64,000 bases of DNA from an uncultured Thiomicrospira sp. (lineage in GTDB: Bacteria > Pseudomonadota > Gammaproteobacteria > CAKMZV01): contig OZ239628.1 in the NCBI GenBank assembly GCA_965195345.1, forward strand, positions 288,001-352,000, in the 5' to 3' direction. The stretch's first letter is position 1, and every line of letters starts with the position of its first letter. The notes beneath the pieces were generated by a model. It saw nothing but the letters and a program-made list of their open reading frames with translations. It was not told where the DNA came from and made no database searches. This document shows positions 1 through 41,856 of this stretch, in pieces. A program made the translations under genes and the position numbers.

Positions 1-3000
1 ACAGGAGCCGCTGGATCAGTGGGGCAACTTAACATAAACGTAGTGAATCAGACAAGAGGCGTGGAAGATGTAAGTTTGGACTTTATTCCTCCTGATGGGT
101 TTTTGGGCAATTCCACTTTTGTAATAACGTTAAACGACGGAACCGGTAATAGCACAGTAACATCAGTCGTTGTATCAGTAGTTGAAGCCCCACCCACTTT
201 TACCCTGACTACTTCAGCTGTAGTTGTTCCTGAAAATGCTACCGCACGGCAAACAATTGCTATCACTAATGTGGGAGTTGCTAATGGAGCTTCTGTAACG
301 TTTAGTGTCACAACAGCAGGTGACTCTATTTTCAGTGGTGATCCTGCGCCAGCAGTGTCTTTCGACGACTTAGTGCAAGTGTCATCTGTGGTTAATGCGG
401 CAACGACTGGTACCGCCAATTTGTATTACACACTAAGTCCCGACTCAACAGGAATAGGACAAATCATAATTACCTTAACGGAAAGTAATTCTGGGAGAGC
501 GTATAGCCAGACGGTAACGGTAACGGTGGAATCAATTAACCATACACCAGTCATCACGCAATATTTTGCGGACCACCAGTTTATCGATAGAGGAATAATT
601 CGTGCACAAGTGGTTGGCGGCGATTTATTCGCTGCACGTGGAGAATATACAGGGGTGAGTGCTACAACGGCAACCGATGGTACGGGCAGCTATCAAGAGC
701 AATTGGATTTTGCTCGGTCACTTGGTGGAACTTTGGTTGAATTTGATTCTATAGAAGTATACAACGCACTGTTTGGCAATATTTTAACATCCGACACAAG
801 ATCAGTACCTCTACCAGGGGCGGACATCGATAATGATCGCTTTTGGATAGGTGTAACGGCTGCACCTGATAGGTTTGGTGATCCAACATTTCCACGAGTA
901 GCTGGTGATAGACTCTTTTATCACTTAACGGGGCAATTGCTATCAAACGGATTTGATGCTGACCGAGTAGAAGTCCCAGGTGTTTACATTGGTTGGGGTG
1001 TTAATTCTCCAGCTGAAGTGGGTGGTAATATTTGTGTTGATCTGATTATAGTACCGGTGTCCGGTTTTGATCCATGGGCGTCTGATACTTGCATCGCAGG
1101 CGCAGGAGGCTTTGTTGTTTTTGGTCTGCTTAAAGCGGTTATGCAATTTCCAGATGGTTTAGCTTCGACTTCGCTTGTGAGCGTAAGAGCACAAGTAAAT
1201 TCAACTGTAACCGTAAACATTAGTGGTTATGATTTAGACGGGGCAGACTCTCCACTTAGCTGGACAGTCAGCGCTGGACCTGAACTTCAGAGTGTAGCTC
1301 AGGATATAACCACCAGTAACGTTGACGTCCAAGCTGGTGCTGAAACATTAAGGGTGGTGTTCCCTCTACCGCTTAATTTTGTTGGGCGAACTACATTAAC
1401 AGTGACATTGAACGATGGATTACTTACTACCAGTGCCCAAATAACAGTGTTGGTTGAAAATGACCCACCAACGATTGATGTATCAACCAATCTGATTACG
1501 TTGAATGAAGACTTTAGTCCGAATTTTGTGATCAATGTGACGGCAACCGACAGGGAAGATGGGGTATTGGCTTTTAGTGTGAGCACAGGAGGATCCGTTG
1601 TAACGCTGTCTCAGATAACAACCGATAGCATCACATTATCTGCAATCCCCAATGCGAATGGCACTGTGACATTGACGTTCACAGCAACGGACAGTATTGC
1701 ATTGGCAGCAACGACTGAAGTTGTTGTGACAGTTAATCCCATTAACGACCCACCAACGATTGAAGTATCAACCAATCTGATTACGTTGAATGAAGACTTT
1801 AGTCCGAATTTTGTCATTAACGTCACGGCAACGGATACAGAAGATGGAGTATTGACTTTTAGTGTGAGCACAGGAGGATCCGTTGTAACGCTGTCGCAGA
1901 TAACAACCGATAGCATCACATTATCTGCAATCCCCAATGCAAGTGGCATTGTGACATTGACGCTCACAGCAACGGACAGTGGTGTATTGACAGCAACGAC
2001 GGAAGTTGTTGTGACAGTTAATTCCATTAACGACCCACCAACGATTGATGTATCAACCAATGCGCTTACGTTAAATGAAGACTTTAGTCCGAATTTTGTC
2101 ATTAACGTCACGGCAACGGATACAGAGGATGGGGTATTGGCTTTTAGTGTGAGCACAGGAGGATCCGTTGTAACGCTGTCGCAGATAACAACCAATAGCA
2201 TCACATTATCTGCAATCCCCAATGTAAGTGGCATTGTGACATTAACGCTCACAGCAACGGACAGTGGTGGATCGGCAGCAACGACGGAAGTTGTTGTGAC
2301 AGTTAATCCCTTTAACGACCCACCAACGATTGAAGTATCAACCAATCTGATTACGTTGAATGAAGACTTTAGTCCGAATTTTGTCATTAACGTCACGGCA
2401 ACGGATACAGAGGATGGGGTATTGGCTTTTAGTGTGAGCACAGGAGGATCCGTTGTAACGCTGTCGCAGATAACAAGCAATAGTATCACATTATCTGCGA
2501 TACCCAATGCGAATGGCATTGTGACATTGACACTCACAACAACGGACAATCTTGGATTTACGACAACGGCGCAAGTTGTCGTGACAGTTAATCCCATTAA
2601 CGACCCACCAACGATTGAAGTATCAACCAATACGCTTACGTTGGATGAAGACTTTAGTCCGAATTTTGTCATTAACGTCACGGCAACGGATACAGAGGAT
2701 GGAGTATTGGCTTTTAGTGTGAGCACAGGAGGATCCGTTGTAACGCTGTCGCAGATAACAACCGATAGCATCACATTATCTGCAATCCCCAATGCAAGTG
2801 GCATTGTGACATTGACGCTCACAGCAACGGACAGTGGTGTATTGACAGCAACGACGGAAGTTGTTGTGACAGTTAATTCCATTAACGACCCACCAACGAT
2901 TGATGTATCAACCAATGCGCTTACGTTAAATGAAGACTTTAGTCCGAATTTTGTCATTAACGTCACGGCAACGGATACAGAGGATGGGGTATTGGCTTTT

Positions 3001-6000
3001 AGTGTGAGCACAGGAGGATCCGTTGTAACGCTGTCGCAGATAACAACCAATAGCATCACATTATCTGCAATCCCCAATGTAAGTGGCATTGTGACATTAA
3101 CGCTCACAGCAACGGACAGTGGTGGATCGGCAGCAACGACGGAAGTTGTTGTGACAGTTAATCCCTTTAACGACCCACCAACGATTGAAGTATCAACCAA
3201 TCTGATTACGTTGAATGAAGACTTTAGTCCGAATTTTGTCATTAACGTCACGGCAACGGATACAGAAGATGGAGTATTGGCTTTTAGTGTGAGCACAGGA
3301 GGATCCGTTGTAACGCTGTCCCAGATAACAAGCAATAGTATCACATTATCTGCGATACCCAATGCGAATGGCATTGTGACATTGACACTCACAACAACGG
3401 ACAATCTTGGATTTACGACAACGGCGCAAGTTGTCGTGACAGTTAATCCCATTAACGACCCACCAACGATTGAAGTATCAACCAATACGCTTACGTTGGA
3501 TGAAGACTTTAGTCCGAATTTTGTCATTAACGTCACGGCAACGGATACAGAGGATGGGGTATTGGCTTTTAGTGTGAGCACAGGAGCATCCGTTGTAACG
3601 CTGTCTCAGATAACAACCAATAGCATCACATTATCTGCAATCCCCAATGCAAGTGGCATTGTGACATTGACGCTCACAGCAACGGACAGTGGTGTATTGA
3701 CAGCAACGACGGAAGTTGTTGTGACAGTTAATTCCATTAACGACCCACCAACGATTGATGTATCAACCAATGCGCTTACGTTGAATGAAGACTTTAGTCC
3801 GAATTTTGTCATTAACGTCACGGCAACGGATACAGAGGATGGAGTATTGGCTTTTAGTGTGAGCACAGGAGGATCCGTTGTAACGCTGTCGCAGATAACA
3901 ACCAATAGCATCACATTATCTGCAATCCCCAATGTAAGTGGCATTGTGACATTAACGCTCACAGCAACGGACAGTGGTGGATCGGCAGCAACGACGGAAG
4001 TTGTCGTGACAGTTAATCCCTTTAACGACCCACCCACGATTGAAGTATCAACCAATGCGCTTACGTTGAATGAAGACTTTAGTCCGGATTTTGTCATTAA
4101 CGTCACGGCAACGGATACAGAGGATGGGGTATTGGCTTTTAGTGTGAGCACAGGAGGATCCGTTGTAACGCTGTCGCAGATAACAACCGATAGCATCACA
4201 TTATCTGCAATCCCCAATGCGAATGGCATTGTGACATTGACGCTCACAGCAACGGACAGTGGTGGATCGGCAGCAACGACGGAAGTTGTTGTGACAGTTA
4301 ATTCCATTAACGACCCACCAACGATTGATGTATCAACCAATGCGCTTACGTTAAATGAAGACTTTAGTCCGGATTTTGTCATTAACGTCACGGCAACGGA
4401 TGCAGAGGATGGAGTATTGACTTTTAGTGTGAGCACAGGAGGATCCGTTGTAACGCTGTCGCAGATAACAACCGATAGCATCACATTATCTGCAATCCCC
4501 AATGTAAGTGGCATTGTGACATTAACGCTCACAACAACAGACAGTATTGGAGTGGCAGCAACGACGGAAGTTGTCGTGACAGTTAGTCCCATTAACGACC
4601 CACCAACGATTGAAGTATCAACCAATCTGCTAACGCTGATTGATAACGTTGCATCTTTTGTGATCAATGCGACGGCAACGGATACAGAGGACGGGGTATT
4701 GGCTTTTAGTGTGAGCACATCCTCGCTTGTCACGGTGTCACAAATAACAACCAATAGCTTCACATTAATTCCTGTTATAGATGCCATTGGAACAGCAACG
4801 TTAACGGTTTCAGCGGTTGATAGTGGCACGTTGCGTGCATCAACTGAAATTGTGGTATTGGTTCGCCCGTTTAACAACACACCAACCTTAACGCTATCAA
4901 CGAACGTGGTAACGGTGTTTGAAAACTATGCAGCTTTTAATATTCTTGCGGTATCAAATGATGTAGAGGGACCGGCAGGTGAGTTTGGCATTACAGCGCA
5001 AGGTCAACCTCCTGGGGCGCCAAGGATTCGTATCAGATTTGGTAACCTCAGTTCACGGACTACTTCAAATGGTTTATTTGAGGCAACACAAGTTATTCAA
5101 ATCGACTCTGGTGTGGCTGATGGTTTTACTCTCCCATTGACTGTTACTGGGACTATATTCACAAGAGATAGCACTTCAGGCGATATCACGCGATTGACTG
5201 CAACACAGCTATTTACGATGATAGTTCTTGAGAATGGTAATGCTGGTTTTCAAGTGAGCACTGATTCAGTTACTGTTCGTGAGGGCGGTGTTTCTTCCAC
5301 TTTTGCTGTTTCGCTCACATCTCAGATAGATCCAGGCGGTTCAATTAATTTGATTCCTTCCCCCGCGATGTTTGGTTTGCCGACACAAGAATTAACCTTT
5401 AATCCACCGTCATTGACGTTTACTAATGCAGATGGTATAGCGTCGCAAACGATTACGGTTTCTGCGGTGGATGATTTTATTGATGAGGATACAGAAACGA
5501 TAGTGGTTTCATTCACAGTCACGAGTACGAATTCTATTGGACAGGCTTATATAGCGGATGCGGGCGCGGTCCCGACGTTGAACGTAAGTGTTATAGACAA
5601 CGACACGGCGGGGATTAGCGTGAGCCCATTGGCATTAACAGTTTCGGAAGCTGGAGGGATGGCTACGATAGCGGTTCGATTGGATGCTCAGCCTGAAAGT
5701 ACGGTTGTGATTAACGTTTCGACAACAGGGGTGTTTATTCGTGAATTTGTGAAGACGGTTACAGTAAGCGATGTATTGCTCAGCTTTACTTCGTTGAGTT
5801 GGCAGACGCCACAGACGATTACGATCACGGGTCAGGATAATGATTTTGATGATGGTACTCAGATGGTAGCGGTTAGTTTTGCTTCAACGGTTGTATCGGG
5901 TGCGGACACGAATACGCAATCGCATTGGGCGGGCGCACAGAGTCAGTTAGCGACGGTACCAGTTACGATATTGGACGATGATACAGCGAGTGTAGTAGTG

Positions 6001-9000
6001 AGTGCTTTGAGCACAAACGTTTTGAGGGAGAGTGTGGCGAATGATTCATTGACCTTCACAATTCGTTTGGGCGCTAGACCGTTTGATCCAGTAACTGGTA
6101 ATATTGGGTTATTGAATGAACTCGTTGGTGGTTTGGTTGATTCGACACTTAGTACCACGCGTTTAAGCTTTAGTACGGGTACATCAAGTTGGCAGACGTT
6201 ACAAACGGTTACGGTTACGGTATTGGATGATGATTTTGATGATGGTACACGTATTACAACGTTGACGATATCTGCATCATCTGCAGAGTTTGGTTTCAAC
6301 AACGTCCCAACTCAAACACGCGTCTATCAAACCCTTGATGATGACACGCGTGGTTTGTTTGTTAACCCGTCGAGCTTGACGGTAACAGAAGGGAGTGCGA
6401 CTTCGGCGTTTGAAGTACGCTTGACAAGTCGTCCGTTTGGTTCAGTGGTTGATGTATCTTTTAGTAGTGAACATAGTTTTGTTTTTGGTACGGATGTTCC
6501 GAATCAATCGTTCTTGAGTACGAGTAATATTCAATTTGGTACGAACGCTAGTGATTGGCAGACGCCGCAGACAATTACGGTTACGGCGTTTGATGATTTT
6601 GTTGATGATGGTACGCAGACATCGACATATACTTTGAATGTATCGGGTGGTGATTATGGTCCGAGTGAGAATGCGACGTTAACGGTTTTAGCGTTGGATG
6701 ATGATACGGCAGGATTTGTGGTGGCGCCGTTATTCACGACACTCATAGAAGCGGCTAGTGCAGCAGCTGCAGATCGGAGTGATGTTATAGAGATCAGAGC
6801 CCAATCACAACCGACAGGTACGATAACGTTATTGGTTAATACGACGAGCAGTGATGGTTCGGATCAGCTAACGTTATCGAATTCGAGTGCTTCATCGAAC
6901 AGCAGTATTCGTTTGTCGTTTACTTCACAGACGTGGAATACGCCGTTGCTATTCACGGTTACGGCGATAGATGAGTTGATCAATGACGATGGTGCGCATA
7001 CAACGGTAAGTTTTAGTGTGGATACTACAGGCGTTATTAGTGGGTACAGTGCGGCAACGCCATTGGATCCGGTGCGTGTTGCTATTACTGATAATGAGGG
7101 CTCTGGTTTTCAAGTGAGCCCTAGTTCAGTTACTGTTAGTGAGGGCGGTGGTTTTTCCACTTTTGCTGTTTCGCTCACTTCTCAGATACCTGCAGGCGGT
7201 GTAATTTATTTGACTCCTTCCCCCGAGATGGTTGGTCTATCGACACAAGAATTGACCTTTAATCCATCGTCATTGACGTTTACTAATGCAAATGGTTTAG
7301 CGGCGCAAACGATTACGGTTTTTGCGGTGGATGATTTTATTGCTGAGGATACAGAAACGATAGCGGTTTCATTCACAGTCACGACTGCGGATCCTGTTGG
7401 ACAGACTTATATATCGAATCCGGACTTTACGCCTTCGACGTTGAGCGTACGTATTATAGACAACGACACGGCTGGGATTAGCGTGAGTCCATCGGCATTA
7501 ACAATTTCGGAAGCTGGAGGGATGGCTACGATAGCGGTTCGATTGGATGCTCAGCCTGAAAGTACGGTTGTGATTAACGTTTCGACAACAGGGGTGAGTC
7601 TTCTTGACGTTGAAAAATCGGTTACATTAAGCAATGCATTACTCAGCTTTACTCCGTATCCTTCGTTGAGTTGGCAGACGCCACAGACGATTATGGTCAC
7701 GGGTCAAGATGATGATTTTGCTGATGGTACCCAGACGGTATCGGTTAGTTTTGCTTCAACGGTTGTATCGGGTGCGGACACGAATACGCAATCGCATTGG
7801 GCGGGCGCACAGAGTCAGTTATCGACGGTACCGGTTACGATATTGGACGATGATACAGCGAGTGTAGTAGTGAGTGCTTTGAGCACAAACGTTTTGAGGG
7901 AGAGTGTGGCGAATGATTCATTGACCTTCACAATTCGTTTAGGCGCTAGACCGCTTTCAACAGTAACTGTTGTTGTTGGGTTAATGAATGAACTCGTTGG
8001 TGGCTTGGTTGATTCGACACTTAGTGCCACGCGTTTAAGCTTTAGTACGAGTGCATCAAGTTGGCAAACGCCACAAACGGTTACGGCTACGGTATTGGAT
8101 GATGATTTTGATGATGGTACACGCAATACAACGTTGACGATATCTGCATCATCTATTCAGCCTGCTTACAACGAATTAGCAACTCAAACACGCGTCTATC
8201 AAACCCTTGATGATGACACGCGTGGTTTGTCTGTTAACCCGTTGAACTCGACGGTAACAGAAGGGGGTGCGACTTCGACGTTTGAAGTACGCTTGACAAG
8301 TCGTCCGTTTGGTTCAGTGGTTGATGTATCTTTTAGTAGTGAACATAGTTTTGTTTTTGGTACGGATGTTCCGAATCAATCGTTCTTGAGTACGAGTAAT
8401 ATTCAATTTGGTACGAGTGCATCAAGTTGGCAGACGGCGCAGACAATTACGGTTACGGCGTTTGATGATTTTGTTGATGATGGTACGCAGACATCGACAT
8501 ATACTTTGAATGTATCGGGTGGTGATTATGGTCCGAGTGAGAATGCGAGGTTAACGGTTTCAGCGTTGGATAATGATACGGCAGGATTTGTGGTGGCGCC
8601 GTTATTCACGACACTCACGGAAGCGAGTGGTGCAAGTCAGACTGATGAGATAGAGATCAGAGCCCAATCACAACCAACAGGTACGATAACGTTATTGGTT
8701 AATACGGCGAGCAGTGATGGTTTGGATCAGCTAACGTTATTGAATTCGAGTGCTTCATCGAACAGCAGTATTCGTTTGACGTTTACTTCACAGAGTTGGA
8801 ATACGCCGTTGCTATTGACGGTTAGGGCTATAGATGAGTCGTTCAATGACGTTGATGCGCATACAACGGTAAGTTTTAGTGTGGATACTACAGGCGTTAT
8901 TAGTGGGTACAGTGCTGCAACGGCATTGGATTCGGTGCGTGTTGCCATTATTGATAATGAGAATGCTGGTTTTCAAGTGGACCCTGGTTCAGTTACTGTT

Positions 9001-12000
9001 AGTGAGGACGGTAGTTCTGCCACTTTTGCTGTTTCGCTCACTTCTCAGATACGTGGAGGCGGTTCAATTAATTTGACTCCTACCCCGGAGATGGTTGGTC
9101 TATCGACACAAGAATTGACCTTTGATCCACCGTCATTAACGTTTACTAGCGCAAATGGTTTAGCGTCGCAAACGATGACGGTTTTTGCGGTGGATGATTT
9201 TATTGATGAGGATACAGAAACGATAGCGGTTCCATTCACAGCCACGAGTACGGATACTATTGGACAACAATACATAGAGGATCCGAGCTTTATGGCCTCG
9301 ACGTTGAACGTAACTATTATAGACAACGACACGGCTGGGATTAGCGTGAGCCCATTGGCATTAACAATTTCGGAAGCTGGAGGGACGGCTACGATAGCAG
9401 TTCGATTGGATGCCCAGCCTGAAAGTACGGTTGTGATTAACGTTTCGACAACAGGGGTGAATTTTTCTGAATTTGTGAAGACGGTTACATTAAGCGATGT
9501 ATTGCTCAGCTTTACTTCGTTGAGTTGGCAGACGACACAGACGATTACGCTCACGGGTCAAGATAATGATTTTTTTGATGCTACCCAGACGGTATCGGTT
9601 AGTTTTGCTTCAACGGTTGTATCGGGTGCGGACACGAATACGCAATCGCATTGGGCGGGCGCACAGAGTCAGTTATCGACGGTAGCGGTTACGATATTGG
9701 ACGATGATACAGCGAGTGTAGTAGTGAGTGCTTTGAGCACAAACGTTTTGAGGGAGAGTGTGGCGAATGATTCATTGACCTTCACAATTCGTTTAAGTAG
9801 TAGACCGTTTAATCAAGTAAATGTTGATGTTGGGTTATTGAATGAACTCGTTGGTGGCTTGGTTGATTCGACACTTAGTGCCACGCGTTTAAGCTTTAGT
9901 ACGGGTACATCAAGTTGGCAAACGCCACAAACGGTTACGGTTACGGTATTGGATGATGATTTTGATGATGGTACACGCAATACAACGTTGACAATATCTT
10001 CTGTATCATCTAATGACCCTGCTTACAACGCATTAGCGGATCAAACACGCGTCTATCAAACCCTTGATGATGACACGCGTGGTTTGTCTGTTAACCCGTT
10101 GAACTTGACGGTAACAGAAGGGGGTGCGACTTCGACGTTTGAAGTACGCTTGACAAGTCGTCCGTTTGGTTCAGTGGTTGATGTATCTTTTAGTAGTGAA
10201 CATAGTTTTGTTTTTGGTACGGATGTTCCGAATCAATCGTTCTTGAGTACGAGTAATATTCAATTTGGTACGAGTGCATCAAGTTGGCAGACGGCGCAAA
10301 CGGTTACGGTTACGGCGTTTGATGATTTTGTTGATGATGGTACGCAGACATCGACATATACTTTGAATGTATCGGGTGGTGATTATGGTCCGAGTGAGAA
10401 TGCGACGTTAACGGTTTTAGCGTTGGATGATGATACGGCAGGATTTGTGGTGGCGCCGTTATTCACGACACTCACGGAATCGGCTAGTTCAAATCAGGAT
10501 GTTATAGAGATCAGAGCCCAATCACAACCGACAGGTACGATAACGTTATTGGTTAATACGACGAGCAGTGATGGTTCGGATCAGCTAACGTTATCGAATT
10601 CGAGTGCTTCATCGAACAGCAGTATTCTTTTGGCGTTTACTTCACAGAGTTGGAATACGCCGTTGCTATTGACGGTTACGGCGATAGATGAGTTGATCAA
10701 TGACGATGGTGCGCATACAACGATAAGTTTGAGTGTGGATACTACAGGCGTTATTAGTGGTTACAGTGCTGCAACGGCATTGGATTCGGTGCGTGTTGCC
10801 ATTATTGATAATGAGAGTCCTGGTTTTCAAGTGAGGCCTCCTTCAGTTATTGTTAGTGAGGACGGTAGTTCTGTCACTTTTGGTGTTTCGCTCACTGCTC
10901 AGATAGCTGCAGGCGGTTCAATTGTTTTAATTCCTTCCCCCGAGATGTTTGGTCTATCGACACAAGAATTGACCTTTAATCCAGCGTCATTAACGTTTAC
11001 TAGCGCAAATGGTTTAGCGTCGCAAACGATGACGGTTTCTGCGGTGGATGATTTTATTGATGAGGATACAGAAACGATAGCGGTTCCATTCACAGCTACG
11101 AGTACGAATACTACTGGACAGGCTTATATAGCGGATGCAGACTTTACATTCTCGACGTTGAGCGTAAATGTTATAGACAACGACACGGCTGGGATTAGCG
11201 TGAGTCCATTGGCATTAACAGTTTCGGAAGCTGGAGGGACGGCTACGATAGCGGTTCGATTGGATGCCCAGCCTGAAAGTACGGTTGTGATTAACGTTTC
11301 GACAACAGGGGTGAATTTTTCTGAATTTGTGAAGACGGTTACATTAAGCGATGTATTGCTCAGCTTTACTTCGTTGAGTTGGCAGACGACACAGACGATT
11401 ACGCTCACGGGTCAAGATAATGATTTTTTTGATGCTACCCAGACGGTATCGGTTAGTTTTGCTTCAACGGTTGTATCGGGTGCGGACACGAATACGCAAT
11501 CGCATTGGGCGGGCGCACAGAGTCAGTTATCGACGGTAGCGGTTACGATATTGGACGATGATACAGCGAGTGTAGTAGTGAGTGCTTTGAGCACAAACGT
11601 TTTGAGGGAGAGTGTGGCGAATGATTCATTGACCTTCACAATTCGTTTAAGTAGTAGACCGTTTAATCAAGTAAATGTTGATGTTGGGTTATTGAATGAA
11701 CTCGTTGGTGGCTTGGTTGATTCGACACTTAGTGCCACGCGTTATATTTTTAGTACGGGTACATCAAGTTGGCAAACGCCACAAACGGTTACGGTTACGG
11801 TATTGGATGATGATTTTGATGATGGTACACGTATTACAACGTTGACGATATCTTCTGTATCATCTAATGACCCTGCTTACAACGCATTAGCGGATCAAAC
11901 ACGCGTCTATCAAACCCTTGATGATGACACGCGTGGTTTGTCTGTTAACCCGTTGAACTTGACGGTAACAGAAGGGGGTGCGACTTCGACGTTTGAAGTA

Positions 12001-15000
12001 CGCTTGACAAGTCGTCCGTTTGGTTCAGTGGTTGATGTATCTTTTAGCAGTGTACATAGTTTTGTTTTTGGTACGGATGTTCCGAATCAATCGTTCTTGA
12101 GTACGAGTAATATTCAATTTGGTACGAATGCATCAAGTTGGCAGACGGCGCAGACAATTACGGTTACGGCGTTTGATGATTTTGTTGATGATGGTACGCA
12201 GACATCGACATATACTTTGAATGTATCGGGTGGTGATTATGGTTCGAGTGAGGATGAGACGTTAACGGTTTCAGCGTTGGATAATGATACGGCAGGATTT
12301 GTGGTGGCACCGTTATTCACGACAATCACGGAATCGGCTAGTTCAAATCAGGATGTTATAGAGATCAGAGCCCAATCACAACCAACAGGTACGATAACGT
12401 TATTGGTTAATACGACGAGCAGTGATGGTTCGGATCAGCTAACGTTATCGAATTCGAGTGCTTCATCGAACAGCAGTATTCGTTTGTCGTTTACTTCACA
12501 GACGTGGAATACGCCGTTGCTATTCACGGTTACGGCGATAGATGAGTTGATCAATGACGATGGTGCGCATACAACGGTAAGTTTGAGTGTGGATACCACA
12601 GGCGTTATTAGTGGGTACAGTGCGGCAACGCCATTGGATCCGGTGCGTGTTGCCATTATTGATAATGAGAGTCCTGGTTTTCAAGTGAGGCCTCCTTCAG
12701 TTACTGTTAGTGAGGACGGTAGTTCTGCCACTTTTGGTGTTTCGCTCACTGCTCAGATAGCTGCAGGTGGTTCAATTGTTTTAATTCCTTCCCCCGAGAT
12801 GTTTGGTCTATCGACACAAGAATTGACCTTTGATCCACCGTCATTAACGTTTACTAATGCAAATGGTTTAGCGTCGCAAACGATGACGGTTTTTGCGGTG
12901 GATGATTTTATTGCTGAGGATACAGAAACGATAGCGGTTCCATTCACAGCCACGAGTACGAATACTACTGGACAGGCTTATATAGCGGATGCAGACTTTA
13001 CATTCTCGACGTTGAGCGTGAATGTTGTAGACAACGACACGGCTGGGATTAGCGTGAGTCCATCGGCATTAACAATTTCGGAAGCTGGAGGGATGGGTAC
13101 GATAGAGGTTCGATTGGATGCTCAACCTGAAAGTACGGTTGTGATTAACGTTTCGACAACAGGGGTGAATTTTTCTGAATTTGTGAAGACGGTTACAGTA
13201 AGCGATGTATTGCTCAGCTTTACTTCGTTGAGTTGGCAGACGACACAGACGATTACGCTCACGGGTCAAGATAATGATTTTGATGATGGTAATCAGACGG
13301 TATCGGTTAGTTTTGCTTCAACGGTAGTATCGGGGGCGGACACGAATACGCAATCGCATTGGGCGGGCGCACAGAGTCAGTTATCGACGGTAGCGGTTAC
13401 GATACTGGACGATGATACAGCGAGTGTAGTAGTGAGTGCTTTGAGCACAAACGTTTTGAGGGAGAGTGTGGCGAATGATTCATTGACCTTCACAATCCGC
13501 TTAGGTAGTAGACCGTTTAATCTAGTAAATGTTGATGTTGGGTTATTGAATGAACTCGTTGGTGGTTTGGTTGATTCGACACTTAGTGCCACGCGTTTAA
13601 GCTTTAGTACGGGTACATCAAGCTGGCAGACGTTACAAACGGTTACGGCTACGGTATTGGATGATGATTTTGATGATGGTACACGTATTACAACGTTGAC
13701 GATATCTTCTGTATCATCTTCTGACCCTGCTTACAACGAATTAGCAACTCAAACACGCGTCTATCAAACCCTTGATGATGACACGCGTGGTTTGTCTGTT
13801 AACCCGTTGAACTCGACGGTAACAGAAGGGGGTGCGACTTCGACGTTTGAAGTACGCTTGACAAGTCGTCCGTTTGGTTCAGTGGTTGATGTATCTTTTA
13901 GCAGTGTACATAGTTTTGTTTTTGGTACGGATGTTCCGAATCAATCGTTCTTGAGTACGAGTAATATTCAATTTGGTACGAGTGCATCAAGTTGGCAGAC
14001 GGCGCAGACAATTACGGTTACGGCGTTTGATGATTTTGTTGATGATGGTACGCAGACATCGACATATACTTTGAATGTATCGGGTGGTGATTATGGTCCG
14101 AGTGAGAATGCGACGTTAACGGTTTTAGCGTTGGATGATGATACGGCAGGATTTGTGGTGGCGCCGTTATTCACGACACTCACGGAAGCGCTTGGTCAAG
14201 ACCAAAATGAAATTATAGAGATCAGACCCCAATCACAACCAACAGCTACGATAACGTTATTGGTTAACACGACGAGCAGTGATGGTTCGGATCAGCTAAC
14301 GTTATCGAATTCGAGTGCTTCATCGAACAGCAGTATTCTTTTGACGTTTACTTCACAGAGTTGGAATACGCCGTTGCTATTGGTGATTACGGCGATAGAT
14401 GAGTTGATCAATGACGATGGTGCGCATGCAACGATAAGTTTGAGTGTGGATACTACAGGCGTTATTAGTGGGTACAGTGCTGCAACGCCATTGGATCCGG
14501 TGCGTGTTACCATTATTGATAATGAGAGGCCTGGTTTTCAAGTGAGCCCTAGTTCAGTTACTGTTAGTGAGGACGGTGTTTCTGCCATTTTTGGTGTTTC
14601 GCTCACTGCTCAGATAGCTGCAGGCGGTTCAATTGTTTTAATTCCTTCCCCCGAGATGTTTGGTCTATCGACACAAGAATTGACCTTTAATCCATCGTCA
14701 TTAACGTTTACTAATGCAAATGGTTTAGCGTCGCAAACGATGACGGTTTCTGCGGTGGATGATTTTATTGATGAGGATACAGAAACGATAGCGGTTTCAT
14801 TCACAGCCACGAGTACGAATACTACTGGACAGGCTTATATAGCGGATGCGGACTTTATATTCTCGACGTTGAACGTAACTATTATAGACAACGACACGGC
14901 TGGGATCAGCGTGAGCCCATCGGCATTAACAGTTTCGGAAGCTGGAGGGACGGCTACGATAGCAGTTCGATTGGATGCTCAGCCTGAAAGTACGGTTGTG

Positions 15001-18000
15001 ATTAACGTTTCGACAACAGGGGTGAATTTTTCTGAATTTGTGAAGACGGTTACAGTAAGCGATGTATTGCTCAGCTTTACTTCGTTGAGTTGGCAGACGA
15101 CACAGACGATTACGCTCACGGGTCAAGATAATGATTTTGATGATGGTACCCAGACGGTATCGGTTAGTTTTGCTTCAACGGTTGTATCGGGTGCGGACAC
15201 GAATACGCAATCGCATTGGGCGGGCGCACAGAGTCAGTTATCGACGGTAGCGGTTACGATATTGGACGATGATACAGCGAGTGTAGTAGTGAGTGCTTTG
15301 AGCACAAACGTTTTGAGGGAGAGTGTGGCGAATGATTCATTGACCTTCACAATTCGCTTAGGTAGTAGACCGTTTGATCCAGTAACTGTTGATGTTGGGT
15401 TATTGAATGAACTCGTTGGTGGTTTGGTTGATTCGACACTTAGTGCCACGCGTTTAAGCTTTAGTACGGGTACATCAAGTTGGCAGACGTTACAAACGGT
15501 TACGGTTACGGTATTGGATGATGATTTTGATGATGGTACACGCAATACAACGTTGACAATATCTTCTGTATCATCTAATGACCCTGCTTACAACGCATTA
15601 GCGGATCAAACACGCGTCTATCAAACCCTTGATGATGACACGCGTGGTTTGTCTGTTAACCCGTTGAACTCGACGGTAACAGAAGGGGGTGCGACTTCGA
15701 CGTTTGAAGTACGCTTGACAAGTCGTCCGTTTGGTTCAGTGGTTGATGTATCTTTTAGCAGTGTACATAGTTTTGTTTTTGGTACGGATGTTCCGAATCA
15801 ATCGTTCTTGAGTACGAGTAATATTCAATTTGGTACAAACACTAGTGATTGGCAGACGCCGCAGACAATTACGGTTACGGCGTTTGATGATTTTGTTGAT
15901 GATGGTACGCAGACATCGACATATACTTTGAATGTATCGGGTGGTGATTATGGTCCGAGTGAGAATGCGACGTTAACGGTTTTAGCGTTGGATGATGATA
16001 CGGCAGGATTTGTGGTGGCGCCGTTATTCACGACACTCACGGAAGCGAGTGGTGCAAGTCAGACTGATGAGATAGAGATCAGAGCCCAATCACAACCAAC
16101 AGGTACGATAACGTTATTGGTTAATACGACGAGCAGTGATGGTTCGGATCAGCTAACGTTATCGAATTCGAGTGCTTCATCGAACAGCAGTATTCTTTTG
16201 GAGTTTACTTCACAGAGTTGGAATACGTCGTTGCGATTGACGATTACGGCGATAGATGAGTTGATCAATGACGATGGTGCGCATACAACGATAAGTTTGA
16301 GTGTGGATACTACAGGCGTTATTAGTGGTTACAGTGCTGCAACGTCATTGGATTCGGTGCGTGTTGCCATTATTGATAATGAGAGTCCTGGTTTTCAAGT
16401 GAGCCCTAGTTCAGTTACTGTTAGTGAGGACGGTGTTTCTTCCACTTTTGGTGTTTCGCTCACTGCTGGATTAGGCGCAGGTGGTTCAATTGTTTTAATT
16501 CCTTCCCCCGAGATGTTTGGTCTATCGACACAAGAATTGACCTTTAATCCATCGTCATTGACGTTTACTAATGCAGATGGTTTAGCAACGTTGACGATGA
16601 CGGTTTTTGCGGTGGATGATTTTATTGCTGAGGATACAGAAACGATAGCTGTTCCGTTCACAGCCACGAGTACGAATACTACTGGACAGGCTTATATAGC
16701 GGATGCAGACTTTACATTCTCGACGTTGAGCGTAAATGTTATAGACAACGACACGGCTGGGATTAGCGTGAGCCCATTGGCAGTAACAGTTTTGGAAGCT
16801 GGAGGGACGGCTACGATAGCGGTTCGATTGGATGCTCAGCCTGAAAGTACGGTTGTGATTAATGTCTCAACGAGTGCAATTAGTCCATTAGCATTTACAG
16901 GAGGTGTTAATTTCTCACGTACACAGATATTTTTCTCCCCTCATCCAAGCACAGCGTGGATGGATACTCAAACATTAACGGTCACAGCGATTAATGATGA
17001 CTTTGATGATGATACACAGACGTTAACGGTTAGTTTTGCTTCAACGGTTGTATCGGGGGCGGATTTGAATACGCAATCGCATTGGGCGGGCGCACAGAGT
17101 CAGTTATCGACGGCATTGATTACAATATTGGATGATGATGTGGCTTTTGTTTCGTTGAGTACAACGGATCTGGGGATTATTTATGAACAAGCTGCAGGCG
17201 GAATTACGCAGACCACTTTTGAAGTGTCGCTGTCAACGATACCTATAGCGGATGTTGAAGTTTCATTTGCACAAGTTTTTTCTGCGCCAAGTACGGAGTT
17301 GTTGAACATACCATCAATTACATTTCCAGCTTTCATTTCAGGGGCATTTAGTTCCCAAACGATCACGGTGAGAGCGTTTCATGACATGGAGGATGATGAC
17401 ACGCAAGTAGTCAGTATATTGCTGAATGCTTCAGGTACGAATTCCTATAGTACAGCACTTGAAATTGACACGGTTACGGTTACAGTTATAGATTTAGATG
17501 TTCGAGGGGTAACTGCTACTCCGACCACTTTGACGGTTAGTGAGGATGGACTTGAAGGAGGTTTTGCGAGCACTGCTTTATTCACCGTTGTTTTGGATTC
17601 AAGACCGTTCTTTGCGACAGGTGTTGCTCAAACCGTTGTGCTTAATTCAACGTTGGTAAGTTCATTCATTGGAGCAAGTGCGGCTACATCGCAACAAATA
17701 ACCTTTTCACCAAGAACGTTAGTATTCAATCGCAGCAATTGGGATATTGCTCAACAAGTATTGGTTACAGCGGTGGATAACGTTATTGATGAAGGGACTC
17801 AGCAATCGACGATAACGTTGGGCGCATCAGGAGGCGATTATTTGTCAGGAGTAAATGAAGATGAAGTGGTTGTTACTGTTTTAGATGAGGATGAGGCGGG
17901 CGTGCTGGTTGTTCCAACTTCTCTAACGGTAACCGAAGATCAAACAATTAGCCCTTCAGCGGTATTTTTAGTTCGTTTATTGACGCAGCCAAACGCTCTG

Positions 18001-21000
18001 GTATCAGTGGGTGTTTTCTCAACGATCAACACGACTTCTCCAGATACTGGTCAGGTTTTTGGTGTACCCCAAATCACTTTAGAAACATCAAGTCAAGCTA
18101 TTAGTAGTGAGAGTGTGACGTTAGATTTTACTGCATTGAATTATTTTGTTACTCAAACGGTCACGGTACGAGCAATTGATGATAGTTTGAATGATGAGAC
18201 ACAAATAACGACGGTTGCGTTGAGCATCGTGAGCACACCAAATTCTGGCTATAATTCAGCATTGGAGATTAGTTCAGTACGCGTTACGGTGCTTGATGAT
18301 GAAAATGCTGGATTTGTTTTTTCCACTCAAACGCTTAGTTTAATCGAAGGGGAGAGTGATTCAATCAGAGTGCGTTTGCGTTCTCAACCTACGCAGGATG
18401 TCCAATTGAACGCGCGTTATACGCTAAACGGTTTAACGACGAGTGAGTTGACGTTTACTCCAGACACATTAATCTTTACCAGTGTGACTTGGGATATTGA
18501 ACAAAACGTCATCGTTTTGGCGGTTGATGATTTTGTTGATGAGGATGAAGAGGTGGTGCAGGGAAGTTTTAACGCGATATCATCGGATACAAGCTACATC
18601 AACAGCAGTGATTTTTTAGGAGATACATTAACTCTAACGATAACGGATAACGATACTGCAGGAATAACATTTACGACGGATCAGTTGGTTATTGGGGAGG
18701 TCTCGAGCATCCTAAGTACGGTTGCAATGTTTGGTATTCGTCTTGATGCGCAACCAGAAAGCACGGTAGTGCTAACGTTGAGTACGCGTGTTCTGAGTGT
18801 GAGTCCTGGTTTTTCAACGAGTCAAATAGGTTCTTCTTTTGATATAAGTACGTTGAGGCTTACGTACGCACCATTTCCATCGACGAGTTGGCAAACGACG
18901 CAAATTGTAACGTTGAATGCGATTGATGATTTTTACGATGATGACACACAGACCTTTACACTGAGTGCTCAAAGCACCGTTTTATTGACGGCGGATACGA
19001 ACACGAGGAATCATTGGAGCGGTTCAAATGCGCAGTTTGCAAGTTTGGACGTTGTCGTTGTTGATGAGGATGTGGCTGGAATAATTGCACGTGTGGTTGG
19101 AGCGCCTTTATCGGTTTCAGAAGAAGGTGAGAGCACGCAAGTTATCGAGGTTCGTTTGAGCGCTCAACCGTTTGAAGAAGTTCCAATATTGAGCGATACT
19201 TCGATTAATTACACTATTTTGTCGAACGGGCGCACGAGTGAGGTAATCTTAATCAACTCGACGTTCTCCTTTAATACCTTAGTTTCAGGAATAGGGTCAT
19301 GGCAAAGCACGCAGTCCTTCGTGGCGCAGGGTGTAGAGGATTTTGTTGACGATGATACGCAAACGTTTGTTCTGTCTATCCGTACAACGAACACGATTGA
19401 TCCGAAATATCAATTTGTTGATGAGCAGAGCACTTTAGGACTTAGTATTGATAATGATGTCGCTGAGTTATTATTGTCTGCGAATAGCACTCCGTTAACG
19501 GTCATTGATGCTTTATTTGATCCCAATAATGGGGCAACGTTTAGCACGTTCTCAGTGCGTTTGGCTACGGAACCTGTTAATGATGTCACGCTTTTAGCAT
19601 TTTCTACGAGTGCAACATTGGGAGTTATCGATTCGGCGATGAGAACGTTGAGCTTTACAAGTTTGAATTGGGACAGAGCACAGGTAGTGACGTTGCAAGG
19701 TGTTCCTGATATTCCTCCGAGTACGGATCCTACGCAAAGTTTTACGGTTCGAGTTGAAGTGAGCTCACTAACGGTGGATTTGGCTTACAGCTCTCCTACA
19801 CGTGTTCAGGCAGAAGAGATTGATGCGATTAATATCAATGATGATTTGCCAGGCTTTACGATTAGCCCGTTGCAATTGTCTTTGGTTGAGCGCAGTCAGA
19901 GCCAATCGACCGGTGTTTATCAGATTAGGACTAATACTGCGCCGAGCGGGAATGATGCTGTTTTGACCATACGAACGAGCACTCAAAATGCAGGGTTTAA
20001 TCCTGAGTTAACATTGAGTGATGGGACAACTCAGACAACTCAGACAACATTGGAATTGCGATTCACGGCGGGTGTTATTAGCACAATAGCGGTTACGGTA
20101 TCGGTTGTTGATGATCATGCATTGATCGGAGCAGATAGGCTTTTTGTGAATTTTCACTCTAGTACAGGTGGGAATGGTTTTTATATATTTGATGAGACAG
20201 AGTTGAGTGAAGTAAATATTTCAGTAGGCGATGATGAGACCATCGACGGTGTTAATGCCTTCATCACGAAAATAGCAGATGGTAATGAAGGGGTTAGTTC
20301 TCAAGCTGGGGCAAATGTAGTTATAGGTGATGAAGAGCCGGTTGAATTCAGGACGGGTTTGAGGAACATAAATACGGATCAGATTGTTACGAATCGTACA
20401 GGAGGGGTGATTGTTTTTGATACGACTATCACAGGCGGACGGGTTGCATTGGGTGGTTCTTCTGCGACGGGCTCAGCAGATATTGATATAGTGACGTTTG
20501 AGCATTCCATTATAGATGGCTCAACGAGTGTGCTCCAGACGTGGCCGACCTTGGAGGACCCTGCATTTGAGGGTTACCCTGATGAAGAAGCTATAGAAGT
20601 TGGTTTGATATTACGCACGACTACGTTGAGGATTTTCACGGCGAACGCTACGGCTACAGCGGATGTTATAGACAATGATAACTTCCAAGTGGGGCTTAGA
20701 ATTGTAAACACCGAAAACGGTGCTGAGTCTGAGTTAAATGATAGACCGGTAATATTTGAAGGCTCAATGTCTTTGGCGAACTATACGGGCTCGACGATTG
20801 TTTTGAGTGTGAACTATGTTGAAGTACCAGGGGGTGCAATTCCCCAATTTTCTCGAACGTCAGGGTTTGACTATTTCACGGAAACCAGCCCTCATATTTT
20901 GATTTTAGCGGGTCACACAACGGGTCAATTTCTTGTTGAGGTTTTTGACGATTTGATATTTGAAAATACGGAAGAGGTACAGGTTGAAATACTTAATCCT

Positions 21001-41141: not shown

Positions 41142-41486
41142 TTATGGAAGTTCCTTACTGAGCTCCCCTTCAATATTAATAGTGAACTCACGTACTTTAG
41201 CTCTAAGAGATAGCTTCCCGTCAGCCAGCTTGCCTCTAAATACTGCAGCATATTCATCAAGAAAAACCAATGATTCTACCGCCATACTGTGTTTTTTAAC
41301 ATTGACAAATGCAGAGAAATTTTCCCCGTCAATTTCATACTTCCCAGTATATAGAAAGTTTCCATCTCCTCCATATATTTGTTCTTTTTCTAAAAAACAA
41401 ACACCAGCACCGAATCGAACTTCAGTCCCTCCGCTTGCTGTTGCTGTAAAACGAACAACCCATAAACCCTCTACTGACGTTGACAT
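41142..41486 (-). CDS. GrlR-family-like small beta-barrel protein
   Basis: EGLWVVRF...FGAGV......IYGGD.NFLYTGKY resembles the GrlR family pattern. ATG at 41486 has an AGGAG Shine-Dalgarno, so it is preferred over the ORF-track start at 41519. Confidence 0.6.
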   Translation of the reverse strand: MSTSVEGLWVVRFTATASGGTEVRFGAGVCFLEKEQIYGGDGNFLYTGKYEIDGENFSAFVNVKKHSMAVESLVFLDEYAAVFRGKLADGKLSLRAKVREFTINIEGELSKELP

Positions 41487-41608
41487 GCTTTCTCCTTTTC
41501 TGTGTTCCGTAAAATTCAAAGAAATTATATCTCAAATTTGTAAAACAATAATTTTCCTTACTCCATCTTCCAACAACGCACAGTCGTCATACGATTATGC
41601 CATTTATC

Positions 41609-41856
41609 ATGTGCGCCGATTTTCAAATCATTGCCCACAAAAACCTCACAAAGGAGCAGAGGCGGTCTGCGATTTACTGGCGAAAGGATGGCGATTGCAT
41701 GGAAGCATCGCCTATGCTCAGCATCACGTGCCAGCGAGAAACCCAAAAGAGCCGGGCGGATAGGTCGAGGCTAATGAATCATGGGTATATGTGCAAGCTA
41801 TGAAATCACCTAAGGAGAAGGGCATGAAAAACATTAAAAAAAGCACTGATGCGTGA
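41609..41856 (+). pseudogene. Probable DUF1737-like pseudogene (frameshift plus in-frame TAG)
   Basis: MCADFQIIAHKNLTK, frameshift near 41650, then AEAVCDLLAKGWRLHGSIAYAQ, TAG at 41761, then WVYVQAMKS in the same frame. Together these give the L..GW.L.G...Y.QAM pattern. Confidence 0.5.

What the first reader, a model, noticed from the sequence alone, without database searches (positions are those of the whole stretch)
5245..16860. Repeat copies differ almost only by amino-acid-changing substitutions: a diversifying surface array
Seen: hand alignment of unit 1 (5245-5565) with unit 2 (7105-7425), 107 codons, gives about 30 nonsynonymous and 3 synonymous codon differences, and all 30 keep their third base (e.g. 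gat/cct, cca/gca, tca/gta, agt/act, gcg/ccg). The same holds in domain 2 (ttt att cgt / agt ctt ctt / aat ttt tct) and domain 3 (cca/aca/caa/cta; aat/gtt/gat). Changes cluster in short patches, while long stretches such as most of domain 4 are nearly invariant. Known: neutral drift gives roughly 3:1 and structural spacer domains normally fall well below that. Inference: dN/dS well above 1 between paralogous domains of one gene, so these are not inert spacers but hypervariable modules on a fixed scaffold, possibly for phage, predator or host evasion, or as a binding repertoire. This is the best candidate for an undescribed system in the window.
Basis: partly seen in the sequence, partly recalled or inferred. 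Interest (0 to 1): 0.85.

Follow-up and report, generated by a model that had tools for sequence, protein, structure and literature searches.

The report
Fast-diverging repeat units in giant surface protein
Six near-identical 1.9-kb repeat units inside one enormous bacterial surface-protein gene differ from each other by amino-acid changes about as often as chance mutation would give, and faster than that at a minority of positions, which is a clear example of a known way in which protein repeats evolve and not a new system.

Summary
Unit 1 versus unit 2, first 107 codons, has 30 amino-acid-changing and 3 silent codon differences, and all 30 keep their third base. That stretch is the extreme of the array.

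- **Whole unit:** dN/dS is 1.05-1.14, not different from 1. There are 204 amino-acid-changing and 53 silent events, which fully neutral simulations reproduce.
- **By domain:** only domain 1 (about 1.9-2.0) and domain 5 (about 1.3-1.45) exceed 1. Domains 2-4 are 0.66-0.95.
- **Rate heterogeneity is real:** ten columns carry four residues among six copies, against 0.9 expected (0 of 550 simulations). Columns that vary in a sister genus's array give 53:6.
- **Controls stay below 1:** a second array in the same gene and the orthologous array in another genus.
- **No dedicated diversifier:** the genome has no reverse transcriptase and the changes show no adenine bias. I found no donor cassettes.

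Best reading: intragenic recombination keeps the repeats alike (Rm = 37), most positions are under strongly relaxed constraint, and a minority are probably under diversifying selection. This is the regime described by Persi, Wolf and Koonin 2016, so it is a new member of a known kind.

The parts
1..40629 (+). Window part of one giant gene. The full ORF is 14,357 codons from the first ATG at genome position 285556, which is 2,445 nt before the window. It has an N-terminal hydrophobic leader and a C-terminal Cys/Gly-rich motif followed by a hydrophobic segment and a basic tail.
1459..4593 (+). Control array: 11 copies of a 285-nt (95-aa) Ig-like (Big_9) repeat, 89-92% identical, with a three-unit higher-order period. 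It has 32 N and 23 S events, a ratio below 1.
5245..7104 (+). Unit 1 (1860 nt, 620 aa, five beta-sandwich domains). It is the most diverged unit, 91% nt identity to unit 3.
7105..8967 (+). Unit 2 (1863 nt), 93% nt identity to unit 3
8968..10821 (+). Unit 3 (1854 nt). It was the reference for the structure model (mean pLDDT 85).
10822..12675 (+). Unit 4 (1854 nt), 96% nt identity to unit 3
12676..14532 (+). Unit 5 (1857 nt), 94% nt identity to unit 3
14533..16389 (+). Unit 6 (1857 nt), 95% nt identity to unit 3
16390..18306 (+). Decayed seventh unit. Its domain 1 (16390-16746) is still close to units 4-6. The unit as a whole is 50% identical in protein to unit 3.
5245..5598 (+). Domain 1 of unit 1. 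The domain-1 class across units has omega 1.86-2.06, 71 N and 13 S events, and 16 columns with three or more residues.
5509..5601 (+). Largest variable patch (alignment columns 89-120), in unit-1 coordinates. It covers the helix and loop before the last strand of domain 1.
5725..5775 (+). Variable patch in domain 2 (columns 162-178, including FIR/SLL/NFS). It lies in a loop modelled with low confidence.
6067..6117 (+). Variable patch in domain 3 (columns 279-295)
6736..6795 (+). Variable patch with in-frame length variation in domain 5 (columns 503-522)
40498..40605 (+). C-terminal sorting-signal-like segment. It matches the JDVT-CTERM model at 26.0 bits, just under the 27-bit cut-off.

Best explanation
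The region is a tandem array of six 1.86-kb super-repeats, plus a decayed seventh. Each encodes five Ig-like, Calx-beta-like beta-sandwich domains. The array sits inside one 14,357-codon gene for a secreted, probably surface-attached fibre protein of a 1.9-Mb bacterium.

The units are kept 91-96% identical by intragenic recombination or gene conversion, which also shuffles variants between units.

Most positions are under strongly relaxed purifying selection, so amino-acid-changing and silent differences accumulate at about the same rate. Positions conserved across the wider family stay constrained. A minority of positions, mainly in domains 1 and 5, accumulate amino-acid replacements faster than the silent rate, most likely through diversifying selection on the protein.

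Shown here: the array, the mosaic, the ratios and the excess of multi-residue columns. Inferred: that selection causes the excess, and what the selection is for.
For: - **Array and frame:**
- **Concerted evolution:** the units are 91-96% alike in DNA but only 48-49% alike in protein to the orthologous units of another genus.
- **Mosaic:** 2637 of 4465 pairs of informative sites show all four gametes, and the minimum number of recombination events is 37.
- **Average ratio near 1:** omega for the whole unit is 1.05-1.14 and 1.11, p = 0.42. N = 204 and S = 53 are typical of neutral simulations: 83 of 200 reach the N count and 148 of 200 reach the S count.
- **Constraint persists:** the 151 columns conserved in five outgroup copies have a ratio of 0.5-0.7. 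All length differences are multiples of three.
- **Excess at some sites:**
  - Ten columns have four or more residues, against a mean of 0.9 (0 of 550 simulations). Thirty-five columns have three or more, against 19.6 (2/200, 5/200 and 3/150).
  - In the 35 columns with three or more residues, codon positions 1, 2 and 3 vary in 35, 28 and 11 columns.
  - M2a-M1a is 40.9 for domain 1 and 22.9 for domain 5, against a null maximum of 17.7 in 39 replicates.
  - The 75 columns that vary in the sister genus give N:S = 53:6, with ML omega 2.04, p = 0.016.
- **Silent divergence is not elevated in the variable patches:** pS is 0.070 inside against 0.056 outside, while pN is 0.147 against 0.027.
- **Controls below 1:** the 285-nt array gives 32:23, and the sister-genus arrays give 0.38-0.66 even for their youngest differences.
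- **The general regime is published:** PMC5120217 (abstract and sections 8 and 11 read).
Against: - With a classifier that uses none of the six units, the 465 outgroup-variable columns give ML omega of only 1.27, p = 0.085. The event ratio is 1.58, p = 0.005.
- The stronger result for columns that differ between genera (omega 1.91, p = 0.0002; 0 of 750 simulations) is partly circular. A replacement that spread within the array also changes the consensus.
- Domain-1 omega falls to 1.36 (p = 0.15) with seven copies. One of 39 neutral replicates reaches 1.86.
- The site-class test is badly miscalibrated under recombination: 17 of 39 null replicates exceed the nominal 5% threshold.
- Variable nucleotides cluster about twofold in all three codon phases (36 against 15, 22 against 11, 25 against 12.4). 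Co-segregating adjacent pairs number 10, 10 and 12 across the phases. Part of the clustering is therefore at the DNA level.
- Four of the ten four-residue columns lie next to alignment gaps.
- Variation is not confined to exposed-looking positions.
- The sister genus shows no such signal.
- The evidence rests on one genome and holds no population data.
Confidence: 0.6

Rival explanations
1. There is no positive selection. The six units are young, recombining copies in which nearly all positions are effectively neutral (omega at most 1). The hot columns come from clustered or multi-nucleotide mutation, local differences in coalescence depth, and a few misaligned columns.
For: - Whole-unit omega is indistinguishable from 1.
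- Hydrophobic columns have a ratio of 0.95.
- Nucleotide clustering is about equal in all codon phases.
- Third positions at fourfold sites are 1.8 times more diverse in amino-acid-variable columns, 0.064 against 0.036.
- The unbiased classifier gives ML omega 1.27, p = 0.085.
- The site-class test is miscalibrated under recombination: 17 of 39 null replicates exceed the nominal 5% threshold.
Against: - Neutral simulations with block-wise coalescent trees never give ten four-residue columns (0 of 550; maximum 6).
- They never reach the domain-1 or domain-5 likelihood-ratio values (0 of 39).
- Columns that vary in the sister genus give 53:6.
- pS in the patches is only 1.25 times that outside, while pN is 5.5 times higher.
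- Family-conserved columns are at 0.5-0.7, so an average of 1.1 needs some class above 1.
Confidence: 0.27
2. One reading: a programmed hypervariable surface array, with dN/dS well above 1 throughout. It would be an undescribed diversification system for evading phages or predators, or a built-in repertoire of binding modules.
For: - There are local ratios of 2-3.
- Hot patches, some with length variation, lie in loops.
- Variants are reshuffled between units.
- The gene was not found in two genomes of the same genus with two queries, as is common for surface genes under frequency-dependent selection.
- Earlier notes of this scan report another mosaic surface-protein family in the same genome (not tested here).
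Against: - The average ratio is about 1.1.
- The whole genome has no RVT_1 reverse transcriptase, and the variable sites show no adenine bias.
- I found no donor copies: 387 of the 393 matches to unit 17-mers outside the six units lie in window 16000-17499, the decayed seventh unit and its junction with unit 6.
- Both flanks hold housekeeping genes.
- There is no evidence that variable sites form a face.
- The orthologous array in another genus is under purifying selection.
Confidence: 0.1
3. Assembly or consensus artefact. The differences between units would be errors, or a blend of strains collapsed into one array.
For: - The runs that hold the sequence look like community samples, with millions of contigs.
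- Collapsed repeat pieces appear at three to six times the unique depth.
Against: - Contigs in three runs reproduce the unit-1-specific domain 1 with 0 differences over 4790-5655, at single-copy depth.
- The frame stays open for 14,357 codons.
- Errors would not avoid third codon positions.
Confidence: 0.03

Closest known systems
[quoted passage not shown]
   Same: Paralogous repeat units within one protein diverge under strongly relaxed purifying selection combined with positive selection. Homogenisation by duplication or recombination acts as the counter-force. The dN/dS distributions have heavy tails.
   Different: That work is a proteome-wide survey and states that horizontal evolution is on average below 1. 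Here a single 11-kb bacterial array averages about 1.1 and one domain reaches about 2. The paper's key contrast, horizontal against vertical rates, could not be made here because no close orthologue was found. Its supplementary figures could not be seen.
Giant repetitive surface or adhesin proteins of bacteria, such as the Giant1-5 proteins of Apilactobacillus kunkeei (PMC12863079, passages read) and RTX adhesin extender repeats (PDB 6xi1, a Foldseek hit)
   Same: A very large extracellular protein takes up a sizeable share of a small genome: 43 kb of 1.92 Mb here. It is built of tandem beta-sandwich domains, shows recombination tracts, and has a patchy distribution among relatives.
   Different: In A. 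kunkeei, dS between strains is 4-8 times dN, which indicates purifying selection. The ratio between units here is about 1. The tested parts show no RTX repeats and the flanks hold no type I secretion genes. The leader and the C-terminal tail instead suggest Sec export and C-terminal sorting.
Calx-beta domain (Pfam PF03160; CALX CBD1/CBD12 structures 3ead, 3rb5)
   Same: The whole-sequence Pfam score of a unit is 29.2 bits against a 27-bit cut-off. Later parts of the same protein score 157.8 and 117.5 bits. The modelled domain 1 is a beta-sandwich that matches CALX CBD1 at TM 0.56-0.59 with 16-18% identity, among the highest identities listed; one S-layer hit has 19%. Acidic D/E motifs are invariant.
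   Different: No single stretch in a unit passes on its own. The top fold hits are PapD-like chaperone domains at TM 0.63-0.66. A profile of the units finds no solved structure by sequence.
Diversity-generating retroelements and cassette-based antigenic variation (vls- or pilE-type)
   Same: Localised hypervariable patches sit on a conserved protein scaffold in a surface protein, and variants move by gene conversion.
   Different: There is no reverse transcriptase in the genome and no adenine-specific pattern. There are no silent donor copies outside the array and its seventh unit. The variants are all expressed in one polypeptide and are not switched.

Membership tests
Repeat array under concerted evolution with accelerated paralogous divergence (PMC5120217) | Units within the protein are more alike than they are to orthologous units in another lineage | tested here: met
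   The units are 91-96% identical in DNA and 85-93% in protein within the array. They are 48-49% identical in protein to the units of G004.
Repeat array under concerted evolution with accelerated paralogous divergence (PMC5120217) | Exchange between units (mosaic genealogy) | tested here: met
   All four gametes occur in 2637 of 4465 site pairs, and Rm = 37. Domain trees disagree. Recurrent mutation could contribute.
Repeat array under concerted evolution with accelerated paralogous divergence (PMC5120217) | dN/dS between units is higher than dN/dS of each unit against its orthologue in a close relative | not testable with these tools
   No close orthologue was found. Two same-genus genomes had no match, and the metagenome scan found only 27-30% relatives. 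G004 is too distant for dS.
Positive (diversifying) selection by codon models | dN/dS above 1 for the gene region as a whole | tested here: not met
   Omega is 1.05-1.14, p = 0.42. N:S = 204:53 is typical of neutral simulations.
Positive (diversifying) selection by codon models | A class of sites with dN/dS above 1 that survives a recombination-aware null | tested here: inconclusive
   - Domains 1 and 5 exceed all 39 null replicates. Domain 3 is reached by 2 of 39, and domains 2 and 4 lie within the null.
- Four-residue columns number 10 against 0.9 expected (0 of 550).
- Independent classifiers give omega 2.04 (p = 0.016) and 1.27 (p = 0.085).
- I could not run a model with synonymous rate variation.
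Positive (diversifying) selection by codon models | Selected sites lie on the exposed surface | tested here: inconclusive
   Loops have a ratio of 1.53 (p = 0.04) and strands 1.10. Variable strand residues do not alternate (p = 0.40). Polar columns are at 1.55 and hydrophobic columns at 0.95.
Calx-beta domain (PF03160) | Pfam model match above the gathering score | tested here: inconclusive
   A unit scores 29.2 bits against 27, but no single stretch passes on its own. Other parts of the protein score 157.8 and 117.5 bits.
Calx-beta domain (PF03160) | Beta-sandwich fold like CALX CBD1 | tested here: inconclusive
   The domain-1 model has pLDDT 88.9. CALX CBD hits have TM 0.56-0.59 at ranks 36-45, while PapD-like domains rank first at TM 0.63-0.66.
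Calx-beta domain (PF03160) | Calcium binding by the acidic motifs | not testable with these tools
   Invariant D77, E81, D82, E84, D119 and D121 are seen. That these residues bind calcium is recalled from CALX structures and was not tested.
Diversity-generating retroelement target | Reverse transcriptase and template repeat near the variable region | tested here: not met
   RVT_1 has 0 matches in the whole 1.92-Mb genome, which is 99.7% complete. No unit 17-mers occur elsewhere except in the seventh unit.
Diversity-generating retroelement target | Variation confined to adenine positions of a template | tested here: not met
   The majority base at the 268 variable sites is A 65, G 74, C 59, T 70. 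No unit is adenine-rich at these sites.
Cassette-type antigenic variation | Silent donor copies outside the expressed gene | tested here: not met
   There are 393 matches to unit 17-mers outside the six units. Of these, 387 lie in window 16000-17499, 5 elsewhere in the same gene, and 1 elsewhere on the other strand.
Type I-secreted RTX adhesin (LapA/MpIBP type) | C-terminal RTX repeats and nearby type I secretion genes | tested here: not met
   Pfam finds only Calx-beta and TSP3 repeats in the last 4079 residues. The nine upstream and ten downstream ORFs tested are housekeeping genes or have no family.
JDVT-CTERM sorting signal (NF033191) | Model score over the cut-off, a single Cys, a DP motif nine residues after it, and an adjacent MrtJ-type CPBP protease | tested here: not met
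   - The score is 26.0 bits against a 27-bit cut-off.
- The tail has two Cys and no DP (compared with passages of 10.1101/2023.06.07.544157).
- The adjacent 193-aa ORF has no CPBP match.
- The two CPBP-family matches lie far away in the genome.
- It still has the three-part form of that class of signals.

The most novel reading that the evidence does not exclude
The six units are a standing, co-expressed library of variant modules. One conserved five-domain scaffold is repeated six times, and each copy carries a different set of residues at a few dozen hot positions. Diversifying selection keeps the copies different, and intragenic gene conversion recombines them. One giant fibre would then present several binding or recognition specificities at once and could generate new combinations without any dedicated enzyme.
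Probability: 0.15. Interest if true: 0.65.

Novelty: new member of a known kind. Interest (0 to 1): 0.35.

Why it matters
If the excess of replacements at the hot positions is adaptive, this gene shows how a streamlined free-living bacterium can diversify a surface fibre from within one gene, using only recombination between its own repeats. That bears on how phage or grazer pressure shapes the few very large genes of small marine genomes.

As it stands, the case mainly documents, with controls, a bacterial example of the relaxed-plus-positive regime already described for protein repeats in general. It also shows how much a hand-picked stretch can overstate dN/dS: 3.0 locally against 1.1 for the unit.

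Tried and rejected
- **Old divergence in the variable patches.** I asked whether the patches are old divergence that escaped homogenisation. Rejected: silent divergence inside the patches is only 1.25 times that outside, and third bases are mostly retained.
- **Templated changes from elsewhere.** Rejected by the 17-mer search. An earlier 13-mer search was uninformative, because chance hits are common in 1.9 Mb.
- **DGR.** Rejected.
- **Time lag.** Very young differences might always look like omega near 1. This is not general: the near-identical units of G004 give 0.46-0.66.
- **Codon bias hiding silent change.** Third-position composition of T 0.40, G 0.30, A 0.20, C 0.10 predicts about 30% chance identity of third bases (my arithmetic from the composition). 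The third base is invariant in 124 of 159 amino-acid-variable columns.
- **Whole-unit codon fit.** My own fit first failed numerically (nan). It was replaced by IQ-TREE and a corrected fit.
- **Close strains in metagenome contigs.** The search found only three loci at 27-30% identity.
- **Run X5.** This run from another study gave three short pieces with 0-29 differences, too little to compare strains.
- **Solved relatives by sequence.** None was found.
- **Whole-unit fold search.** It returned only generic tandem beta-sandwich proteins.
- **The scan's own notes.** They held nothing on this place or on these words.

Full report
**What is there**

The window lies at 288001-352000 of a single-contig genome of 1.92 Mb. 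One frame is open from the window's first base to 40629. In the genome it is 14,357 codons from its first ATG.

The product starts with a hydrophobic leader. It ends in a Gly/Cys-rich motif, a hydrophobic segment and a basic tail.

- That tail scores 26.0 bits on the JDVT-CTERM model, one bit below its cut-off.
- It lacks the single-Cys and DP features described for that signal (passages read in 10.1101/2023.06.07.544157).
- Both flanks hold housekeeping genes: nusA, infB, rbfA, truB and ggt upstream, and bacA, a Mg-chelatase-like ATPase and ABC transporter genes downstream.

The gene contains three repeat regions.

- An array of eleven 285-nt Ig-like repeats lies at 1459-4593.
- The six 1.86-kb units of the finding lie at 5245-16389, followed by a decayed seventh unit.
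- About 7,400 further residues are rich in Calx-beta matches.

Each unit models as five beta-sandwich domains, with mean pLDDT 85. Domain 1 alone models at pLDDT 88.9. It resembles PapD-like and CALX CBD1 sandwiches.

**The observation**

Unit 1 against unit 2 over the first 107 codons shows 30 amino-acid-changing codons and 3 synonymous codons, and 30 of 30 keep the third base. The quoted triplets are present. NG86 gives Nd 33, Sd 4 and a ratio of 3.0.

The differences are real. Contigs of three public runs (two samples of one study, which may be the source) reproduce the unit-1-specific domain 1 without a single difference, at single-copy depth.

**How typical that stretch is**

It is the extreme of the array.

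- The 15 whole-unit pairs give NG86 ratios of 0.70-1.72.
- My own codon-model fit and IQ-TREE agree by domain:

| Region | Omega |
|---|---|
| Domain 1 | 1.86-2.06 |
| Domain 2 | 0.66-0.69 |
| Domain 3 | 0.76-0.80 |
| Domain 4 | 0.70-0.95 |
| Domain 5 | 1.31-1.45 |
| Whole unit | 1.05-1.14 |

- The whole unit does not differ from 1 (p = 0.42).
- Counting minimal events, there are 204 amino-acid-changing and 53 silent ones. The N fraction is 0.794 against 0.760 expected (p = 0.115).
- Variable sites fall 103/90/75 on codon positions 1, 2 and 3.

**Controls**

The near-neutral average is not a property of the gene or the genome.

- The 285-nt array in the same gene has 32 amino-acid-changing and 23 silent events. 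This is significantly fewer N than neutral (p = 0.006). Position 3 is its most variable, at 17/12/25.
- A genome of another genus in the same family (G004) carries an orthologous 14,116-codon gene with the same five-domain unit, and a second array on another contig.
- The G004 units give ratios of 0.38-0.66, including the youngest differences.
- For comparison, giant surface genes of Apilactobacillus kunkeei are reported with dS four to eight times dN between strains (PMC12863079, passages read).

**Is any class of sites above 1?**

Standard site-class tests are unsafe here because the units are a mosaic. All four gametes occur in 2637 of 4465 informative site pairs, and at least 37 recombination events are needed. 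That recombination inflates such tests is recalled from the literature, and my own null confirms it.

The null used fully neutral codons evolving on coalescent trees redrawn every few codons. In it, 17 of 39 replicates exceed the nominal 5% threshold. The largest statistic is 17.7, and one replicate reaches omega 1.86.

Against this null:

- Domain 1 (40.9) and domain 5 (22.9) stand out.
- Domain 3 (14.2) is reached by 2 of 39 replicates.
- Domains 2 and 4 lie within the null.

A tree-free check gives the same answer. Neutral simulations tuned to the observed totals give 19.6 columns with three or more residues and 0.9 with four or more. The array has 35 and 10. The simulations reached these values in 2/200, 5/200 and 3/150 runs for the first, and in 0 of 550 for the second. 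Four of the ten columns lie next to gaps. Six would still be at the edge of the simulated range.

Classes defined without looking at the six units:

| Column class | Columns | N:S events | ML omega |
|---|---|---|---|
| Vary among G004's units | 75 | 53:6 (p = 0.0025) | 2.04 (p = 0.016) |
| Variable among five outgroup copies | 465 | 175:37 (event ratio 1.58, p = 0.005) | 1.27 (p = 0.085) |
| Conserved among five outgroup copies | 151 | 29:16 (event ratio 0.50) | 0.70 |

Columns whose consensus differs between the genera give omega 1.91 (p = 0.0002; 0 of 750 simulations). I discount this result, because a replacement that spreads in the array also shifts the consensus.

**Alternatives examined**

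- *Old divergence in the patches.* Silent divergence inside the variable patches is 0.070, against 0.056 outside. Amino-acid-changing divergence is 0.147 against 0.027. The patches were chosen by their variability, so that ratio is biased.
- *Hot mutation.* In the 35 multi-residue columns, positions 1, 2 and 3 vary in 35, 28 and 11 columns.
- *DNA-level clustering.* Some is present. Adjacent variable nucleotides are about twice as frequent as expected in all three phases. Fourfold third positions are 1.8 times more diverse in amino-acid-variable columns.
- *A dedicated diversifier.* There is no reverse transcriptase in the genome and no adenine bias. There are no donor copies outside the array and its seventh unit.

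**Where the variable sites sit**

- Loops have a ratio of 1.53 (p = 0.04), strands 1.10 and helices 0.59.
- Variable strand residues do not alternate.
- Columns that are hydrophobic in G004 still show 0.95, and polar ones 1.55.
An exposed face is therefore not shown.

**Reading**

Intragenic recombination keeps the units alike, and the edge units (1, 2 and 7) are the most diverged. Most positions are under strongly relaxed constraint, while family-conserved positions remain constrained. A minority of positions, mainly in domains 1 and 5, probably change under diversifying selection.

This is the combined regime that Persi, Wolf and Koonin described for repeats across life (PMC5120217; abstract and sections 8 and 11 read; supplements not seen). 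Their decisive contrast with orthologous divergence could not be made here. Two genomes of the same genus have no match with two queries, and a metagenome scan found only 27-30% relatives.

What the selection would be for (phage or grazer evasion, or ligand range) is inference only. Earlier notes of this scan report another surface-protein family in this genome with conserved stalks and recombined heads. I did not test them.

**Verdict**

This is a well-controlled bacterial example of a known kind of repeat evolution, with no new mechanism.

Noticed in passing
window 1459-4593: The 285-nt array has a three-unit higher-order period. In protein, copies 3, 6 and 9 are identical, copies 4 and 7 are identical, and copies 2, 5 and 8 are nearly so. 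It has one six-residue patch with up to four residues per column.
   Followed up: partly
window 40498-40605: The C-terminal tail consists of a Gly run, two Cys, a hydrophobic segment and a basic end. It scores 26.0 bits on JDVT-CTERM against a 27-bit cut-off, and it lacks the DP motif. No CPBP protease gene lies next to it. Two CPBP-family matches lie at genome positions 410798 and 1102736. It may be an undescribed variant of the Cys-containing sorting signals.
   Followed up: partly
window 1611-3581 and 3606-4880, minus strand: Long antisense ORFs of 656 and 424 aa lie inside the 285-nt array. They are probably a by-product of repeat composition.
   Followed up: no
L017 (G004:C17:48000-67000) and L018 (G004:C24:1-16000): The sister genus holds two arrays of the orthologous 1827-nt unit on two contigs. 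Units within the first array differ by only 0-17 nt. One edge unit of the second has a much older domain 1. The two arrays may be two genes or one gene split by assembly.
   Followed up: partly
window 46839-49325 (+) and 41182-41763 (+): An 828-aa ORF and a 193-aa ORF have no Pfam family at E <= 0.001. The 828-aa ORF has only faint PDZ/HtrA-like matches.
   Followed up: no
window 7101 to 5243 (run X2): One contig joins the end of a unit back to a unit start with four other letters between. This is expected for a tandem array assembled from short words (table 5c).
   Followed up: no
genomes G001 and G002 (same genus): Neither the unit nor the C-terminal 876 residues of the giant protein find a match, while the upstream ggt gene is present at 63-64% identity. 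The giant gene looks like flexible gene content.
   Followed up: partly
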